From a virus (lineage: Duplodnaviria; Heunggongvirae; Uroviricota; Caudoviricetes): a DNA stretch of 33,385 nt. The stretch lies in the IMG/VR virus record IMGVR_UViG_2565956726_000001, one strand, 5' to 3'. Shown here in pieces: positions 12,580-18,247 of the stretch. Position numbers and translations under genes: made by a program. Position 1 is the stretch's first letter, and each line of letters starts with the position of its first letter. The notes under the pieces were generated by a model. That model saw only the letters and a program-made list of their open reading frames with translations. It was not told where the DNA came from and made no database searches.

Positions 12580-13662
12580 TTAGAACTGATAAACCAGACC
12601 TACAGCGACGATGTCGTCGGTATCAATACCAGCTGTTTTGGTAAACTTACTATCGTCAATTAAGTTGATTTTGTAATCAACAAAAGTGGACATGTTTTTA
12701 TTAAAGTAGTAAGTAGCACCGACATCGACATACTTGACTAAGTCTCGGTCACCATGAACACCAAGGTCTTTACCTTTTGACTGAAGGTAAGCAACAGATG
12801 GACGCAGACCGAAGTCAAACTGATATTGTGCTACTGCTTCAAAGTTTTGTGCTTTGTTTGCAATATGGTTATTACCAAAAACGGTCATATTCTGAGTTTC
12901 AGAATATGTGGTAGCCAGATAGATATTGTTCGCATCATATTTCAGGCCTGCAGCCCATACTTCCGCATTTTTGCCGGAGGCATTGAATTTGCTCTTACCA
13001 TAGGCGACCTGACCGTCAGTGCGATCTGATTTAGCATAGGTTGCACCCACGCCGAATCCTTCATACTCATAAGTAGTGGAGAAACCGAAACCATCACCAT
13101 TGGCTTCAGTTACGTCAGTGCGGTCATTTTTACCCTGATACTGAGCAGCAAAGTTCAGGCCATCGACCAGACCAAAGAAGTCGTTGTTACGATAAGTTGC
13201 AACACCAGTAGTGCGACCAGTCATGAACACATCTGTTTGGGTCCAGGTATCACCACCGAATTCTGGCAGGACGTCAGTCCACGCACCGATGTCGTATGCT
13301 ACACCGTAGTTACGGCCGTAATCGATTGAGCCGTAATCACCAAATTTCAGGCCTGCAAATGCAAGACGGGTTTTGTCTTTGGAAGAACCTTGAGATTCAG
13401 CACGGTTGCCTTTGAATTCATATTCCCACTGACCGAAACCAGTCAGTTGATCGTTGATTTGGGTTTCACCTTTGAAGCCAAGACGGGCATAAGTAGTATC
13501 ACCATCATCTGCATCATTAGAGGAGAAGTAGTGCTTGGCATTAACTTTCCCGTATAGATCCAGCTTGTTACTGTCTTTATTATAAATTTCAGCTGCCTGA
13601 GCAGACATCGCCATCAGTACTGATGCAGCTACAGCAGAAATTGCCACTGTTAATTTTTTCAT
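12580..13662 (-). CDS. nmpC: Prophage-encoded general porin (OmpC/NmpC/Lc family) with signal peptide
   Basis: 360 aa; signal peptide ending AQA-AE; terminal aromatic residue (..VGLVYQF); located between Q and the lysis genes in reverse orientation, as in DLP12. Confidence 0.9.
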
Positions 13663-14090
13663 TGTACGCCCTTTTTTTTGAACTATTATTAAAAAATGAT
13701 GTCACTGCGCGATAAATATTCATCTAATCAATGCGATTATTTCAAGATGTAAGTTTTAGTTTCTCATTTAATTTGTGAAGTAGATCTCTATTTTTATCTA
13801 AACCTTTTCTATCTAATCCTATTCATGGCTCTTGTTTGAACGAAAATAAATCTATTAGCTAATTTATATTAATGGCACTTATTTATAAGAGATCTATAAT
13901 TCTTTAGCTTAATTTAAACAAACTAAAAATAACATCGGAAATTATTCATTGGTTATTTGTTGAAGTTTTCTTATGTATTTGTGGTGGTGTTTTGAACACT
14001 CGGTGGCATTCTCACAAATATCATTTAGTAGTTTACGTACGTAAAAAATTGGTTATGCTGTTAAGAGTGGTTACTTCGTCACACAGCTTA

Positions 14091-14122
14091 AACCCGCCGT
14101 CGAGCGGGTTTTTCCATTTTTT
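14091..14122 (+). terminator. Intrinsic terminator upstream of the lysis cassette
   Basis: AACCCGC-CGTCGA-GCGGGTT hairpin followed by TTTCCATTTTTT. Confidence 0.5.
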
Positions 14123-14251
14123 GAGTCTCGATATTAGCTGATAACCCAATACCTGAGTTATTCACTGACTCCGAATCTGTTACGTTTCTGCCTTTATTGC
14201 GATACGTAGTATCCCCTTAATTTACACCCGCTTTGTCTGCGAGGTGGGGTT

Positions 14252-14467
14252 ATGAAATCCATGGATAAGTTAACAACGGGTGTCGCCTATGGCACCTCAG
14301 CAGGTAGTGCCGGATACTGGTTTTTACAGCTGCTAGATAAAGTCACGCCCTCACAGTGGGCGGCAATTGGAGTGCTGGGTAGCCTGGTATTTGGCCTGCT
14401 GACGTACCTGACAAACCTTTATTTCAAGATTAAAGAAGATAAGCGCAAGGCTGCGAGAGGTGGATAA
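14252..14467 (+). CDS. S: Class II holin (phage-21 S-type pinholin), dual-start motif MKSMDK
   Basis: 71 aa, close to recalled S21 sequence ([17 protein letters not shown]...); two in-frame Met codons separated by a Lys codon. Confidence 0.9.
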
Positions 14468-14964
14468 TGCCTCCATCATTACGAAAAGCTGTTGCTGCTG
14501 CTATTGGTGGCGGGGCTATTGCTATAGCATCTGTGTTAATCACTGGCCCAAGTGGTAACGATGGTCTGGAAGGTGTGAGACATAATCCTTACAAAGACAT
14601 AGTTGGTGTATGGACTGTATGTTACGGGCATACAGGAAAAGACATCATTCCCGGTAAAACGTATACCGAAGCAGAGTGCAAAGCCCTCCTGAATAAAGAC
14701 CTTGCCACTGTCGCCAGACAAATTAACCCGTACATCAAAGTCGATATACCGGAAACAACGCGCGGCGCTCTTTACTCGTTCGTCTACAACGTGGGTGCTG
14801 GCAATTTCAGAACATCGACGCTTCTTCGCAAAATCAACCAGGGCGATATCAAAGGCGCATGTGACCAGCTACGTCGCTGGACATACGCTGGCGGTAAGCA
14901 ATGGAAAGGGCTGATGACTCGCCGTGAGATTGAGCGTGAAGTCTGTTTGTGGGGGCAGCAATGA
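14467..14964 (+). CDS. R: SAR endolysin (phage-21 R-type lysozyme with N-terminal signal-anchor-release domain)
   Basis: 165 aa; hydrophobic Gly/Ala-rich N-terminus then a lysozyme-like catalytic region (call by recall); TAATG overlap with holin stop. Confidence 0.9.
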
Positions 14965-15398
14965 GCAGGTTAACCGCGATTATCTCCGCTCTGGTTATCT
15001 GCATCATCGTCTGTCTGTCATGGGCTGTTAATCATTACCGTGATAACGCCATTACCTATAAAGAACAGCGCGATAAAGCCACGTACATCATCGCTGACAT
15101 GCAGAAGCGTCAACGTGACGTAGCAGAACTCGATGCCAGATATACAAAGGAGCTTGCTGATGCTAACGCGACTATCGAAAGTCTCCGTGCTGATGTTTCT
15201 GCTGGGCGTAAGCGCCTGCAAGTCGCCGCCACCTGTGCAAAGTCAACGACCGGAGCCAGCGGCATGGGCGATGGAGAAAGCCCAGGACTTACAGCAGATG
15301 CTGAACTCAATTATTACCGTCTCCGAAGTGGAATCGACAAGATAACCGCGCAGGTTAACTACCTGCAGGAATACATCAGGACGCAATGCCTGAATTAA
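14961..15398 (+). CDS. Rz: Rz i-spanin
   Basis: ATG 14961 overlaps R stop (ATGA); N-terminal TM segment plus coiled-coil periplasmic domain. Confidence 0.85.
15160..15345 (+). CDS. Rz1: Rz1 o-spanin lipoprotein, embedded in +1 frame of Rz
   Basis: Signal peptide with lipobox (LLGVSAC) followed by Pro-rich mature region; entirely inside Rz. Confidence 0.7.
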
Positions 15399-15429
15399 TT
15401 TTTTTGCAAATCACAAAGTCCATTTAATG

Positions 15430-15484
15430 AGCCTCGCGATGCGGGGCTTTTTGCAATAAATGCGTACCGCAACGCATGTTTTTT
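15430..15484 (+). terminator. Two tandem intrinsic terminators after the lysis cassette
   Basis: Hairpin AGCCTCGC..GCGGGGCT plus T5 (15430-15452) and hairpin ATGCGT-ACCGCA-ACGCAT plus T6 (15460-15484). Confidence 0.6.
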
Positions 15485-15599
15485 ACACCGAACCTGCCCC
15501 TTTGGAATGGGCCTTTGAGGATACCAGTTAGTGCTGGCGAGCCTCGGTGGGCTGGTTTCCTGTGCGGCAAAGGTTCATTTCAAAGAGTAGGTACACGCT

Positions 15600-16097
15600 A
15601 TGAAATCATTAACCCTCTTCAATCAACCAATTCGTATCGGTGAAGATGGCATGATCTGCCTCACTGATATGTGGAAAGCCAGTGGTAAAAGTGAATCTGA
15701 ATCGCCTTACCACTACCTGCGAAACAAGCAGACCAAAGAGTTCTTAGCCGAGCTGGAGAAAAACCACGAATCTGTGGTTTTTACTGAGCGCGGTGTACAC
15801 GGTGGAACATATGGCGGGAAGTTTGTTGCTTACGATTATGCGGCTTGGTTAAACCCCGGGTTCAAGTACGCGGCCTATAAAGTCCTCGATGACTACTTCA
15901 CCGGAGAACTTCAGCATCGCAACAGCTTAAGTGCGCAGCTCAACATGAAATGTCATGAGTTTGACCAGAAGAAAGACATGGCGAGCTTCTGCGGACAAGG
16001 GCTGGCAGCATGGCGCTATACGAAGCCAGTGTTGGTCGCTGAGATTAACTCCCTGGCTAACCAGCTGCAGATTACGATCCCCGGGCTTCCGGGATGA
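15600..16097 (+). CDS. KilA-N domain protein (second copy in window)
   Basis: 165 aa with KilA-N-like core (GTYGGKFVAYDYAAWLNPGF); occupies the position that bor holds in lambda. Confidence 0.65.
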   Translation: MKSLTLFNQPIRIGEDGMICLTDMWKASGKSESESPYHYLRNKQTKEFLAELEKNHESVVFTERGVHGGTYGGKFVAYDYAAWLNPGFKYAAYKVLDDYFTGELQHRNSLSAQLNMKCHEFDQKKDMASFCGQGLAAWRYTKPVLVAEINSLANQLQITIPGLPG

Positions 16098-16351
16098 GTG
16101 ATCGTGTTATTGAATGCGCCTCCAGAGCGGGGCGCGACTTCTCAGAGTTCATGAAAGGCGAGAAGGGCATGATGGAAGCATTGGCCTCGGTGGATGAGTT
16201 TGGCGAGCAGCTGCGCCTCAACGGCTGTGTCAATCATCACTTTGTTAGCTACATGATGCGGAACTCGATCATGCAGGCATTCATGGACATGGCAAAAGCC
16301 GAGAGGAAAGAAGAGCGCCGGCGTAAGCGAGCGGAAGCAAAAGCGAAGTAG
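16094..16351 (+). CDS. Hypothetical small protein with basic C-terminal tail, translationally coupled to KilA-N gene
   Basis: 85-aa ORF, ATGA overlap with upstream gene; no recognisable family. Confidence 0.45.
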   Translation: MSDRVIECASRAGRDFSEFMKGEKGMMEALASVDEFGEQLRLNGCVNHHFVSYMMRNSIMQAFMDMAKAERKEERRRKRAEAKAK

Positions 16352-16637
16352 CCATTACAAAGCCTATCTACGGGTGGGCTTGATAATGGCTTATACCCTA
16401 CACGGGATAACTTAACTGATATCCCTTTTAAAGGATAAAGGTATTCAAGCCTGACACATCATGCGCTGTATCGTCGCCGTGTTCCCGTATTAACAGAGAC
16501 CGTAGCCCGACGGGGAACTCCTTCTGCGCGAGTGTGCGGGAATAATCAAAAACGATGCACACCGGGGTTACCGGGTACACATATTTCATCATGCCAGCGA
16601 GTCCGGTTCTGGCACGGAAGAAACCGGACGTTATGAT

Positions 16638-17048
16638 TTAGTGCGGAAATATTTGTGTAGTGTTCTGAATGTTCTCAGTAAAGAGTAATGAATTATCAAA
16701 GGTATAGTAATACCTTTTGTTTTCGTGGATATTTGTAATCCATCTGAAAACCCCTGCTGTAGCAAGATTTTTCCTGTATTCGTAAAATGATAACTCTCCT
16801 GATTTGAATCCTTTTAAGGTGGCTTCTATAAGGCATTTATTTTTTGAAAATCTTACATTTACAACCTTACCCTGTCCTTTTATTAAAACCGTATTATCGT
16901 TTTCAAGAACAAGATGAATATTCTCTGTGGCTAAATAGTAAATGTAATGTGAGACATTGTGACGTTTTAGTTCAGAATAAAACCAGTGATAGTTTAAATT
17001 ATTTCGCACTTTATCGAATATTTGTTTAAAAATGGCAACCTGAGCCAT
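16638..17048 (-). CDS. DUF1398-type protein (YbcV-like)
   Basis: AT-rich 136-aa gene; start taken at ATG 17048 (GGAAGG SD) rather than track start 17063. Confidence 0.7.
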
Positions 17049-17105
17049 TGTAGTACCTTCCATGTGATATGAGGGGGCGTAGTCTGCACGATTATCTAGA
17101 TTGCT

Positions 17106-17339
17106 TCAATCTGGTCTAACCTGTTTTCTGAGCAATTCAGTAATGTCACTCTTTTCTTTGTTTGCTTCAGGCGAAACTCTTTTTTCTGAGCACAGTCTCC
17201 GGCGGCAGGCTTCAATGACCCAGGCTGAGAAATTCCCGGACCCTTTTTGAACAAGAGCGATGTTAATTTGTTCAATCATTTGGTTAGGAAAGCGGATGTT
17301 GCGGGTTGTTGTTCTGCGGGTTCTGTTCTTCGTTGACAT
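17106..17339 (-). CDS. YlcI-like small protein (DUF3950-type)
   Basis: 77-aa ORF beginning MSTKNRTRRTTTRNIRFPNQMIEQIN, recalled as DLP12 ylcI-like. Confidence 0.55.
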   Translation of the reverse strand: MSTKNRTRRTTTRNIRFPNQMIEQINIALVQKGSGNFSAWVIEACRRRLCSEKRVSPEANKEKSDITELLRKQVRPD

Positions 17340-17499
17340 GAGGTTGCCCTGTATTCAGTGTCGCTGATTTGTATTGTCTGAAGTTGTTTTTACGTTAAGT
17401 TGATGCAGATCAATTAATACGATACCTGCGTCATAATTGATTATTTGACGTGGTTTGATGGCGTAGATGCACGTTGTGACATGTAGATGATAATTATTA

Positions 17500-17727
17500 T
17501 CATTTTTCGGGTCCTTTCCGGCGATCCGACAGGTTACGGGGCGGCGACCTCGCGGGTTTTCGCTATTTATGAAAATTTTCCGGTTTAAGGCGTTTCCGTT
17601 CTTCTTCGTCGTAACTTAATGTTTTTATTTAAAATACCCCCTGAAAAGAAAGGAAACGACAGGTGCTGAAAACGAACTTTTGGGCCTCTGTCGTTTCCTT
17701 TCTCTGTTTTGGGCCGTGGAATGAACA
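17500..17727 (+). other. cos region (cosQ, cosN, cosB with terminase and IHF binding sites)
   Basis: Near-identity to lambda 5' terminal sequence up to the Nu1 start. Confidence 0.75.
17538..17549 (+). other. cosN, the 12-nt cohesive end GGGCGGCGACCT
   Basis: Identical to the recalled first 12 nt of the lambda genome; flanking sequence on both sides matches the lambda right end and left end. Confidence 0.85.
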
Positions 17728-18247
17728 ATGGAAGTCAACAAAAAGCAGCTGGCTGACATTTTCGGTGCGAGTATCCGTACCATTCAGAACTGGCAGGAAC
17801 AGGGAATGCCCGTTCTGCGAGGCGGTGGCAAGGGTAATGAGGTGCTTTATGACTCTGCTGCCGTTATAAAATGGTATGCCGAAAGGGATGCTGAAATTGA
17901 GAACGAAAAGCTGCGCCGGGAGGTTGAAGAACTGCTGCAGGCCAGCGAGACAGATCTCCAGCCAGGGACTATTGAGTACGAACGCCATCGACTTACGCGT
18001 GCGCAGGCCGATGCACAGGAGCTGAAAAATGCCAGAGACTCCGCTGAAGTGGTGGAAACCGCATTCTGTACTTTCGTGCTGTCGCGTATCGCAGGTGAAA
18101 TTGCCAGTATTCTCGACGGGATCCCCCTGTCGGTGCAGCGGCGTTTTCCGGAACTGGAAAACCGACATGTTGATTTCCTGAAACGGGATATCATCAAAGC
18201 CATGAACAAAGCAGCCGCGCTGGATGAACTGATACCGGGGTTGCTGA

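What the first reader, a model, noticed from the sequence alone, without database searches (positions are those of the whole stretch)
15600..16351. Two-gene cassette (KilA-N protein plus 85-aa basic-tailed protein) in place of bor
Downstream of the lysis terminators, where lambda has bor on the opposite strand, this phage carries a plus-strand KilA-N domain gene translationally coupled (ATGA) to a small ORF with no recognisable family, followed by a weak terminator (16404-16429). The post-lysis region is a known moron hotspot, so this pair may be an accessory module of unknown function (regulatory, anti-defence or exclusion).
Basis: partly seen in the sequence, partly recalled or inferred. Interest (0 to 1): 0.5.

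Follow-up and report, generated by a model that had tools for sequence, protein, structure and literature searches.

The report
KilA-N late-gene cassette with RNA leader
This is a common, dispensable insert in the late operon of lambda-like phages: a KilA-N DNA-binding protein of the Bro/Rha/Ant domain-shuffling family, a tiny helical partner protein of unknown role, and, upstream, two terminators and a conserved RNA hairpin that hides the ribosome-binding site.

Summary
Window 15600-16097 encodes a 165-aa KilA-N + ORF11CD3 protein. It overlaps by ATGA an 85-aa ORF (16094-16351) with no Pfam or NCBIfam family, only PHROG 875 (unknown function). The window is 100% identical to Escherichia phage PhiR49_1.

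The pair is not rare. It equals HK620 hkbK/hkbL, occurs in Stx2 phages 1717 and 2851 and in Salmonella and Klebsiella phages, and is in about 10% of complete E. coli genomes.

It sits where P22 has rha. P22 Rha and the late Ant of 933W share its C-terminal ORF11CD3 domain, so it belongs to the known Bro/KilA/Rha/Ant network.

The small ORF is a real gene (dN/dS about 0.15) from a narrow Enterobacterales family. It always follows a Bro-network gene (KilA-N-ORF11CD3, KilA-N-P63C or pRha). In one protein its domain is fused to T5orf172.

New here: the unit carries two upstream terminators and a roughly 100-nt hairpin that sequesters the Shine-Dalgarno sequence (15494-15596). The hairpin shows strong covariation, has no Rfam family, and matches the P22 sncRNA "P22F".

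No promoter was found, so this looks like a Q-dependent late passenger rather than a lysogen-expressed moron. The biochemical function remains unknown.

The parts
13872..14120 (+). Context: a pR'-like promoter (ATGGCA-17-TATAAT, 13872-13900) and a tR'-like terminator (14090-14120) upstream of S. They define the Q-dependent late transcription unit that contains the cassette.
   Evidence: Consensus scan only. Gene order Q, porin (minus strand), S, R, Rz comes from the PhiR49_1 annotation. Not tested further.
15429..15456 (+). Terminator hairpin 1 after Rz: AGCCUCGCG-AUG-CGGGGCU followed by a U run.
   Evidence: RNA folds. The same arrangement is conserved in HK620, a Klebsiella phage, phiEt88 and P22.
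15460..15484 (+). Terminator-like hairpin 2: AUGCGU-ACCGCA-ACGCAU followed by GUUUUUU.
   Evidence: Terminator scan, fold, conserved arrangement.
15494..15596 (+). Conserved structured 5' leader: a long imperfect hairpin of about 100 nt. Its basal helix pairs a CCUUU-type strand with the Shine-Dalgarno region of the KilA-N gene. It is the homologue of P22 sncRNA 'P22F'.
   Evidence: The fold of 15400-15610 gives -74.4 kcal/mol, z = -3.1. Covariance model R1 was built from Ant/Rha/KilA-N and other leaders of other phages. It hits here at 42.3 bits, E 1.4e-8. On 21 sequences, 94.7% of cells are paired and 18 of 29 pairs show compensatory changes. The covariation score is 0.504, against 0.187 for shuffles (0 of 500 reach it) and at most 0.089 for slid controls. 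RNAalifold finds the same helix. No Rfam family matches. Window 15506-15586 equals the first 81 nt of P22F exactly (PMC13397905).
15600..16097 (+). KilA-N + ORF11CD3 protein, 165 aa (HK620 hkbK type; D3 Orf11 architecture).
16069..16093 (+). Small hairpin (CCCGG-GCUU-CCGGG within a longer stem) that ends directly at the ATG of the small ORF. There is no good independent SD, which is consistent with translational coupling.
   Evidence: Fold of the junction. It is present in the window and HK620 type but not in the Klebsiella or HK97 junctions.
16094..16351 (+). Small ORF, 85 aa (HK620 hkbL; PHROG 875): a three-helix protein with a long arginine/lysine-rich C-terminal helix.
   Evidence: AF2 gives pLDDT 92.3 with helices at 3-20, 26-42 and 48-84. 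There are no fold or sequence matches in PDB or BFVD. An exhaustive search finds only 19 representative clusters among 1.84 billion proteins. dN/dS is about 0.15.
16350..16391 (+). Strong 3' stem-loop directly after the stop codon. It marks the right-hand boundary of the cassette and acts as a linker sequence.
   Evidence: Fold z = -4.9. Homology with other phages breaks at 16388 in 40 of 85 loci. A copy of 16351/16374-16439 recurs after inserts of 180-800 bp. GC-rich hairpins also follow the small ORF in the Klebsiella and Rha-type cassettes.
16404..16429 (+).
   Evidence: Sequence. Not called by the scan because the loop exceeds 8 nt. It abuts the stop of the minus-strand 54-aa ORF at 16428-16592.

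Best explanation
**What it is.** The locus is one copy of a mobile, accessory expression unit that lambdoid and related phages carry inside their late operon. Its order is: two intrinsic terminators, a roughly 100-nt RNA hairpin that sequesters the Shine-Dalgarno sequence, a Bro-network gene, a translationally coupled 85-aa gene, and a 3' stem-loop. Here the Bro-network gene encodes a KilA-N DNA-binding domain plus an ORF11CD3 helical hairpin.

**Shown.**
- The domain identities.
- The APSES-like DNA-binding fold.
- The shared C-terminal domain with P22 Rha and the late Ant of 933W.
- The constant linkage of the small ORF to Bro-network genes.
- The conserved, covarying leader structure.
- Accumulation of the leader RNA during P22 infection (published).

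**Inferred.**
- The unit is transcribed only by Q-modified, terminator-resistant RNA polymerase late in lytic growth.
- Translation is kept low or gated by the leader hairpin, through processing or unfolding.
- The KilA-N protein acts as a DNA-binding regulator or antirepressor-type factor that is harmful if made at the wrong time, as P1 KilA and P22 Rha are.
- The small protein, made with it by coupling, is an auxiliary module of the same network, probably binding nucleic acid or a partner through its arginine-rich helix.

The cassette is dispensable for phage growth.
For: - **Anatomy and domains:**
- **Identity to PhiR49_1 and its annotated late-operon context:**
- **Same position as P22 rha:**
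- **ORF11CD3 shared with P22 Rha, 933W Ant, D3 Orf11 and ST104 orf45:**
- **Natural N-domain swap:** P0146 is pRha + ORF11CD3 and is 97% identical to the window protein across the 77% of it that aligns.
- **Linkage:** the small ORF is always directly downstream of a Bro-network gene. All 80 IMG/VR loci have KilA-N-ORF11CD3 upstream. HK97 and mEp234 have KilA-N-P63C. Klebsiella ST11-VIM1phi8.1 has a 251-aa annotated DNA-binding protein that aligns with the HK97 KilA-N-P63C protein. A metagenomic arc-ant region has pRha with a 4-nt overlap.
- **Domain fusion:** the small-ORF domain is fused to T5orf172/MUG113 next to KilA-N-P63C, Arc and Bro-N genes.
- **Mobility as a unit:** the cassette sits inside tail genes in Klebsiella phages.
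- **Leader:**. It lies 5' of Ant, Rha and KilA-N genes in 306 phage records.
- **P22F RNA** was detected only in infected samples and is identical to window 15506-15586.
- **No plus-strand promoter** between 15400 and 15600, with terminators upstream.
- **Dispensability:** lambda lacks the cassette (own knowledge). Phages phi458 and cdtI carry N-terminally truncated copies. HK97 has a frameshifted small ORF.
- **Precedent** for RNA-level locks on antirepressor genes: Gifsy-1 IsrK-orf45-anrP (PMC4825925).
Against: - No experiment addresses this pair, and its target DNA or protein is unknown.
- The promoter scan is a simple consensus search and could miss a weak or non-sigma-70 promoter.
- The small ORF is 97% identical in HK97 and mEp234 although the upstream protein there is only about 19% identical over the whole protein. 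The recombination joint lies at the gene boundary (window 16109). This argues against a tightly co-evolved heterodimer. It allows that the small ORF simply rides on any leader-controlled Bro gene.
- KilA-N-ORF11CD3 genes often occur without the small ORF (phiEt88, D3, ST104).
- The covariation statistics come from an alignment fitted to the model. A plain MAFFT alignment gave no consensus structure.
- The P22F ends come from small-RNA read pile-ups and do not prove processing.
Confidence: 0.6

Rival explanations
1. A prophage-expressed defence or exclusion module (abortive infection or toxin-antitoxin-like). The KilA-N protein would sense or attack incoming phage DNA, and the small protein would be its antidote or regulator.
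For: - KilA-N domains occur in the prophage Abi protein BstA (PMC8585504).
- PADLOC gives a weak domain-level hit to candidate system PDC-S22 (E 1.2e-8, a 31-residue stretch).
- P1 KilA is lethal when expressed (own knowledge; the P1 kilA homology is).
- The two-gene, translationally coupled layout resembles toxin-antitoxin pairs.
Against: - No promoter was found. Two terminators and an SD-sequestering hairpin lie directly upstream. The cassette is co-oriented inside the late operon.
- No BstA-type C-terminal domain or any PADLOC system model matches.
- In Klebsiella phages the cassette sits among tail genes, again in late orientation.
Confidence: 0.1
2. A selfish, homing-endonuclease-like or domesticated mobile element that spreads between late operons and gives the phage little or no benefit.
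For: - It is found at different intergenic sites: after Rz, between R and Rz (Ant type), after Q, and among head or tail genes.
- It has sharp mosaic joints and repeated boundary hairpins.
- The small-ORF domain is fused to a T5orf172/GIY-YIG-like domain.
- HNH genes are frequent neighbours.
Against: - Neither protein has a nuclease domain.
- Both are under purifying selection or well conserved.
- An elaborate conserved regulatory leader suggests a function that must be timed.
Confidence: 0.15
3. An anti-defence (counter-immunity) pair that neutralises a host system.
For: It is accessory, patchy and horizontally mobile. The small protein is helical and highly charged, with no known fold.
Against: - Known anti-defence genes are usually early, and this unit is late and translationally locked.
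- The partner is a DNA-binding, regulator-type protein of a network known for antirepressors and regulators.
- No supporting literature was found.
Confidence: 0.08
4. A packaging or cos-proximal accessory DNA-binding factor, analogous to the HNH protein of HK97, acting with terminase.
For: It lies just upstream of Nu1/A here and of terminase genes in HK620, HK97 and phiEt88.
Against: - The same cassette occurs with unrelated terminases, both cos and pac types, and far from terminase among tail genes.
- Lambda packages without it (own knowledge).
- Truncated copies exist.
Confidence: 0.05

Closest known systems
HK620 hkbK / hkbL (also Stx2 phages 1717 and 2851 'kilA', and Salmonella S107)
   Same: The same two genes in the same order with the same 4-nt overlap. 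The KilA-N protein is 96-97% identical. The small protein is 100% identical over the aligned residues 1-66. The cassette follows Rz.
   Different: Nothing essential. The flanks differ: P22-like or Stx-phage backbones rather than a lambda-like siphovirus. The function is listed as 'unknown' there too.
P22 Rha (orf201) and the phi80/P22 rha genes
   Same: The same position after Rz/Rz1. The same leader RNA, nearly identical in sequence. The same C-terminal ORF11CD3 domain. The rha products are reported to inhibit phage growth in IHF-mutant hosts (Henthorn and Friedman 1995; the title is seen and the content rests on own knowledge).
   Different: The N-terminal domain is Phage_pRha in P22 and KilA-N here, with no pRha hit. 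P22 has no hkbL-type small ORF; orf25, pid and orf80 follow instead.
Late-region Ant of Stx phages (933W ant between R and Rz; phi24B d_ant)
   Same: The same leader RNA family and terminator arrangement. The same ORF11CD3-type C-terminus. Late-operon orientation.
   Different: A different N-terminal domain, a different insertion point (between R and Rz), and no small ORF. Some prophages carry both units (L044, L084, L035).
Pseudomonas phage D3 Orf11 (namesake of ORF11CD3) and P1 KilA (namesake of KilA-N)
   Same: D3 Orf11 has the same full architecture and is 27% identical over residues 9-160. It also sits inside the late head/tail genes. P1 KilA shares the KilA-N domain, about 30% identity.
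   Different: D3 has no hkbL-type partner and the enterobacterial leader was not found there. P1 kilA lies in the C1-controlled lytic replicon operon, not the late operon (record notes).
RNA-level control of antirepressor genes: Gifsy-1 IsrK-orf45-anrP, P1 C4 RNA-ant, P22 sar-ant
   Same: A structured RNA upstream of a Bro-network or antirepressor gene keeps it translationally silent, with RBS sequestration, terminator read-through and translational coupling (PMC4825925). The authors of the P22 sncRNA paper suggest this analogy for P22F.
   Different: Not homologous. The Gifsy-1 region matches Rfam isrK, C4 and c4-a1b1, but model R1 does not hit it. The window has no isrK or C4 hit. No trans-acting mechanism has been shown for this leader.
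BstA (prophage Abi protein with a KilA-N-like domain)
   Same: A KilA-N-type DNA-binding domain in a lambdoid or P22-like prophage.
   Different: BstA is a two-domain protein with a distinct C-terminal region, expressed from the prophage. No PADLOC BstA match was found here, and this unit is late-operon-embedded and locked.

Membership tests
KilA-N domain family (Pfam PF04383) | Sequence match to the family HMM above the gathering threshold | tested here: met
   57.6 bits against a cut-off of 23.8, residues 9-101.
KilA-N domain family (Pfam PF04383) | APSES-like alpha/beta DNA-binding fold | tested here: met
KilA-N domain family (Pfam PF04383) | DNA binding | not testable with these tools
   Needs EMSA or ChIP.
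ORF11CD3 domain (Pfam PF10549) | HMM match above threshold at the C-terminus | tested here: met
   50.5 bits against 25, residues 109-161. It is modelled as a helical hairpin.
Bro/KilA/Rha/Ant domain-shuffling network (Iyer, Koonin and Aravind 2002) | N- and C-terminal modules recombined among paralogues in phage genomes | tested here: met
   The same C-terminal domain occurs with pRha (P22 Rha, P0146) or an Ant-type N-domain (933W). The same small-ORF partner occurs with KilA-N-P63C. The ten Pfam families of the network are listed in PMC10111431.
Rha family (Phage_pRha, PF09669) | N-terminal pRha winged-helix domain | tested here: not met
   No pRha hit at E <= 1. Only the C-terminal part matches PHROG 518 'Rha-like'. 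The protein is therefore a positional and C-terminal homologue, not a Rha.
P22 Ant-type antirepressor (P22_AR_N / ANT domains) | Ant N- or C-terminal domains; binding and inactivation of a repressor | tested here: not met
   No Pfam hit to these domains. Only weak PHROG 'anti-repressor' hits were seen (E 6e-4 and 2e-3). Repressor binding is not testable here.
Moron (own promoter + gene + terminator, expressed from the prophage) | Autonomous promoter upstream | tested here: inconclusive
   No plus-strand sigma-70-like site between 15400 and 15600. The scan is consensus-only.
Moron (own promoter + gene + terminator, expressed from the prophage) | Terminator downstream | tested here: met
   A strong stem-loop at 16350-16391, though without a good U tract here. 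A canonical terminator follows the Rha-type cassette in L091.
PHROG 875 (small ORF) | Full-length HMM match | tested here: met
   E 3.2e-54, residues 1-85 against profile 1-85 of 85. The family has no annotated function.
Known anti-phage defence systems (PADLOC-DB v2) | Match of both proteins to the models of one system | tested here: not met
   Only a 31-residue KilA-N-level hit to PDC-S22 and a non-significant QatB hit.
Rfam isrK / C4 / c4-a1b1 (RNA control of ant genes) | Covariance-model match of the leader | tested here: not met
   No such hit in window 13500-18000 at E <= 1. The positive control, Gifsy-1, is hit by all three families but not by the leader model R1.
Lambda Bor | Sequence similarity; minus-strand lipoprotein gene after Rz | tested here: not met
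   No bor-like ORF in 15400-17400. 933W has both the late ant and bor.

The most novel reading that the evidence does not exclude
The leader hairpin may be a previously uncatalogued RNA class that gates every late-operon Bro-network gene (KilA-N, Rha, Ant) in enterobacterial phages. It might also act in trans as the stable sRNA P22F.

The 85-aa protein has a C-terminal ERRRKRAE-type arginine-rich helix. From memory, this recalls the RNA-binding motifs of lambdoid N proteins. It could be an RNA-binding factor that opens this or another hairpin.

Together they would form a self-contained, mobile, RNA-gated switch. Lytic phages could use it to act on co-resident prophages, satellites or host regulators.
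Probability: 0.1. Interest if true: 0.7.

Novelty: new member of a known kind. Interest (0 to 1): 0.4.

Why it matters
Bro/KilA/Rha/Ant proteins are among the commonest unexplained genes in temperate phages, including Shiga-toxin phages. In those phages anything that affects induction affects toxin output.

Three results give concrete, testable handles on a gene class that has resisted functional assignment since the 1990s:
- The late-operon members share one conserved, covarying leader that hides the ribosome-binding site.
- That leader corresponds to an experimentally seen but unexplained P22 small RNA.
- An unnamed 85-aa protein family is a recurrent, translationally coupled partner.

The work also corrects annotations. 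The P22 'orf201' start and several 'hypothetical proteins' are called across the RNA hairpin. As a gene pair, however, the cassette itself is ordinary and already present in public annotations.

Tried and rejected
- **Literature on the phage.** Searches for PhiR49_1, ORF11CD3, P63C with KilA-N, and KilA-N in lambdoid late regions found no functional study of this pair.
- **Henthorn and Friedman 1995** is not held.
- **phi24B ant knockout** (PMC3064807) concerns a different, pre-qut ant gene, so it is not evidence for this locus.
- **Small ORF fold and sequence.** Foldseek against PDB and BFVD gave nothing below E 0.1. A PDB profile search found zero hits.
- **Zinc-site idea.** I considered C8/C45/H48/H49 as a zinc site. 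I dropped it because C8 is Ser or Ala in P0122 and P0133.
- **Remote homologues.** An exhaustive HMM search found only 19 clusters.
- **Rfam.** Only chance-level hits.
- **MAFFT alignment of 17 leaders.** RNAalifold returned no pairs on it. This was an alignment artefact. I resolved it by building a CM from one well-aligned subgroup and aligning the rest to it.
- **Homology of the leader to Gifsy-1 IsrK/C4.** Tested and rejected.
- **PADLOC.** No system match.
- **dN/dS.** Two comparisons (KpnST11, L091) were out of register and are ignored.
- **Prevalence.** The figure of 4049 of 5426 E. coli genomes reflects the flanks, not the genes. The coding cassette alone is in 525 genomes.
Full report
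**Observation.** Window 15600-16097 (+) is a 165-aa ORF. Window 16094-16351 (+) is an 85-aa ORF whose ATG overlaps the upstream TGA (ATGA). The first protein carries Pfam KilA-N (residues 9-101, 57.6 bits) and a C-terminal ORF11CD3 domain (residues 109-161, 50.5 bits). The second has no Pfam or NCBIfam family. It is a full-length member of PHROG 875, 'unknown function'.

The whole window is 100% identical to Escherichia phage PhiR49_1 (PV340568), a lambda-like siphovirus. In its annotation the two genes are 'KilA-N-ORF11CD3' and 'hypothetical protein'. They lie between Rz and a minus-strand trio (a small ORF, YbcV/DUF1398 and a YlcI/YnfO-like protein), followed by Nu1/A. I found no paper on that phage.

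**How common it is.** The coding cassette occurs in 525 of 5426 complete E. coli genomes. It also occurs in many phages:
- HK620, as hkbK/hkbL, 'unknown'.
- Stx2 phages 1717 and 2851, as 'kilA'.
- Shigella phage Ss-VASD.
- Salmonella phages S107 and 29485.
- Klebsiella phages.

In all 80 IMG/VR loci that encode the identical small protein, the gene immediately upstream is the KilA-N-ORF11CD3 gene. Homology with other phages typically begins at Rz, or at about 15462 or 15527, and ends at 16388, 16439 or about 16570. The pair with about 140 nt of leader therefore behaves as a mosaic module. In two Klebsiella phages the cassette sits inside the tail-gene block, still co-oriented with the late genes. 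It moves as a unit.

The C-terminal ORF11CD3 hairpin is shared with four other proteins:
- P22 Rha, at the same post-Rz position.
- The late 'ant' of 933W, between R and Rz.
- ST104 orf45.
- D3 Orf11, the namesake, which also sits inside late head/tail genes.

A natural variant, P0146, combines a pRha N-domain with the C-terminal part of this protein; it is 97% identical across the 77% of the window protein that aligns. This is the Bro/KilA/Rha/Ant domain-shuffling network of Iyer et al. 2002. ORF11CD3, KilA-N, Phage_pRha, ANT and P22_AR_N are among its ten Pfam families (PMC10111431). The protein is not itself a Rha or a P22-type Ant, because it does not hit those N-domains.

**What the small protein is.** It is a genuine gene. 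dN/dS is about 0.17 against Klebsiella RAH1 (dS about 1.0) and about 0.13 against mEp234. AlphaFold (pLDDT 92) predicts three helices. The last helix (residues 48-84) ends in the basic tail. Invariant motifs are ECASRAGRDFSEF and GCxNHHF.

It has no detectable structural or sequence relative in PDB or BFVD. An exhaustive profile search of 1.84 billion representative proteins found only 19 clusters, with named sources all in Enterobacterales.

Its context is informative:
- In HK97 and mEp234, an almost identical small ORF follows a different protein, KilA-N + P63C. The recombination joint lies at the gene boundary, window 16109.
- A 50%-diverged homologue, P0122, follows a Phage_pRha gene with a 4-nt overlap. 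That gene lies in an arc/ant immI-like region.
- In P0133, the domain is fused to a T5orf172/MUG113 domain. Its neighbours are KilA-N-P63C, Arc and Bro-N genes.

The small ORF is thus an unnamed module of the same network. It is always expressed by coupling to a Bro-type gene. It tolerates very different upstream partners, which argues against a finely co-evolved heterodimer. KilA-N-ORF11CD3 genes also occur without it (phiEt88, D3, ST104).

**The leader, the most informative new feature.** The region between Rz and the KilA-N ATG holds three elements:
- Terminator hairpin 1 at 15429-15456.
- Terminator-like hairpin 2 at 15460-15484.
- A long imperfect hairpin at about 15494-15596. Its base pairs a CCUUU-type strand with the Shine-Dalgarno region. 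The region folded (15400-15610) gives -74 kcal/mol, z = -3.1.

The same three-part arrangement precedes KilA-N, Rha and Ant genes in many backgrounds:
- HK620, HK97 and P22.
- 933W, ST64B, ST104, SPN3UB and VSe13.
- phiEt88.
- Klebsiella phages, where it sits inside the tail genes or directly after Q.

A blastn search with one leader type finds 306 phage records, each with the match just upstream of such a gene.

I built a covariance model from eight Ant/Rha/KilA-N-gene leaders that did not include the window type. It hits the window leader at 42.3 bits (E about 1e-8) and hits nothing else significant in the window. On the 21-sequence model alignment:
- 94.7% of cells are paired.
- 18 of 29 pairs show compensatory double changes.
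- The covariation score is 0.504, against 0.187 for shuffles (0 of 500 reach it) and at most 0.089 for slid partners.
- RNAalifold recovers the same helix with a covariation term of -5.9.

One caveat applies. The alignment is model-fitted, and a plain MAFFT alignment gave no consensus structure. Single-sequence folds of each type independently give the same long SD-sequestering hairpin.

No Rfam family matches. A 2026 small-RNA survey of P22 infection reports an 89-nt sncRNA, 'P22F', seen only in infected samples. It is described as 'partially overlapping ORF201, no known function', with its 3' end 6 nt from the rha ATG (PMC13397905). Its first 81 nt are identical to window 15506-15586. The leader RNA therefore accumulates in vivo.

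The Gifsy-1 IsrK-orf45-anrP system is analogous. It also combines terminator read-through, RBS sequestration and coupling to an antirepressor gene (PMC4825925). It is not homologous. Gifsy-1 matches Rfam isrK, C4 and c4-a1b1 but not my model, and the window matches none of those families.

**Most likely mechanism.**

Shown:
- The unit lies in late-operon orientation downstream of a pR'/tR'-like pair and S-R-Rz.
- It has terminators and an SD-sequestering hairpin upstream.
- No sigma-70-like promoter is detected between the terminators and the ATG.
- The larger protein has a DNA-binding fold.
- The small ORF lacks a good SD of its own, and in this type its ATG abuts a hairpin.

Inferred:
- The unit is transcribed only by Q-modified polymerase late in lytic growth.
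- The leader keeps translation low or makes it conditional, through unfolding or RNase processing. From memory, this resembles the RNase III hairpin in the lambda N leader.
- The KilA-N protein acts as a DNA-binding regulator or antirepressor-like factor whose mistimed expression is harmful. [quoted passage not shown] P1 KilA lethality rests on my own knowledge.
- The small protein is an auxiliary, probably nucleic-acid- or partner-binding module.

The cassette is dispensable. Lambda lacks it (own knowledge). Phages phi458 and cdtI carry N-terminally truncated copies. HK97 has a frameshifted small ORF.

**Rivals.** I rank four alternatives lower, for the reasons given in their entries: prophage-expressed defence or toxin-antitoxin, a selfish homing-type element, anti-defence, and a packaging accessory. 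The main arguments against them are the late, locked expression context, the lack of nuclease or defence-system domains, and the occurrence of the cassette with unrelated terminases and far from cos.

**Verdict.** The finding is real, but the gene pair is ordinary and already in public annotations as hkbK/hkbL. It is a member of the known Bro/KilA/Rha/Ant network at the position of P22 rha.

What this analysis adds:
1. The unnamed 85-aa family is tied to that network.
2. A conserved, covarying, SD-sequestering leader RNA is shared by late-operon KilA-N, Rha and Ant genes. It is absent from Rfam and corresponds to P22 sncRNA P22F.
3. The cassette is better described as a Q-dependent, RNA-locked late passenger than as a lysogen-expressed moron 'replacing bor'.

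The biochemical function remains unknown.

Noticed in passing
window 15494-15596 (+); also L094 1539-1642 (P22), L095 1503-1607 (933W), L002 1660-1769 (HK97), L003 2398-2506 and L096 1503-1606 (Klebsiella phages): A conserved hairpin of about 100 nt sequesters the Shine-Dalgarno sequence 5' of late-operon KilA-N, Rha and Ant genes. It shows strong covariation and has no Rfam family. Its sequence is identical to most of the published P22 sncRNA 'P22F' (PMC13397905). It is a candidate new cis-regulatory RNA family.
   Followed up: yes
L094 1576-1645 (P22 NC_002371 39575-39644); L098 and L099 1430-1621: The annotated GTG start of P22 rha/'orf201' lies inside the leader hairpin. The likely true start is the ATG at L094 1645. 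In VSe13 and 118970_sal4 a 63-aa 'hypothetical protein' is annotated across the same RNA element. These are probably annotation artefacts.
   Followed up: partly
L044 482-589, L084 2020-2127, L035 1564-1669; L095 (933W) 1503-2177: Some prophages carry two leader-plus-Bro-gene units. One is an Ant-type gene inserted between the endolysin and Rz. The other is the KilA-N cassette after Rz. Each has its own terminator and leader copy.
   Followed up: partly
window 16350-16439 (+): The strong hairpin after the small ORF (16350-16391) marks a mosaic joint. In 40 of 85 related loci homology stops at 16388. A second copy of 16351/16374-16439 reappears after a variable insert of 180-800 bp. This looks like a repeated boundary or linker sequence used in modular exchange.
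   Followed up: partly
L090 4001-4495 (protein P0133): The small-ORF domain occurs fused to a T5orf172/MUG113 (GIY-YIG-like) domain. This gene lies in a prophage tail region next to KilA-N-P63C, Arc and Bro-N genes.
   Followed up: partly
window 16313-16348 (residues 74-85 of the small ORF); P0122 C-terminus: The basic tail (EERRRKRAEAKAK here; RRRERRRTKALAKK in P0122) resembles, from memory, the arginine-rich RNA-binding motifs of lambdoid N proteins. No tool here could test this.
   Followed up: no
window 16428-17339 (-): A minus-strand trio lies between the cassette and Nu1: a 54-aa ORF, a DUF1398/YbcV protein and a YlcI/YnfO (DUF3950) protein. PHROG 413 labels the DUF1398 protein 'head protein', which is likely a mislabel. 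These genes, not the KilA cassette, occupy the 'bor-like' opposite-strand moron niche.
   Followed up: no
window 12580-14120: An OmpD/NmpC-like porin gene on the minus strand lies between Q and the lysis genes. It is followed on the plus strand by a pR'-like promoter (13872-13900) and a tR'-like terminator (14090-14120) about 200 nt apart. This resembles the lambda 6S RNA arrangement (own knowledge).
   Followed up: no
L101 (Gifsy-1) 34131-34329 (-): The isrK-orf45 region of Gifsy-1 is hit by three Rfam families: isrK, c4-a1b1 (which overlaps isrK) and C4 antisense RNA (adjacent). This suggests that IsrK control of anrP is a C4/ant-type system.
   Followed up: no
hit H123, PP818812.1 19509-20003: A record named 'Actinobacillus phage vB_Apl-pPE4' encodes a KilA-N protein 96% identical to the E. 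coli one. That is unexpected for a Pasteurellaceae host. It could reflect recent transfer, contamination or a misassigned host.
   Followed up: no
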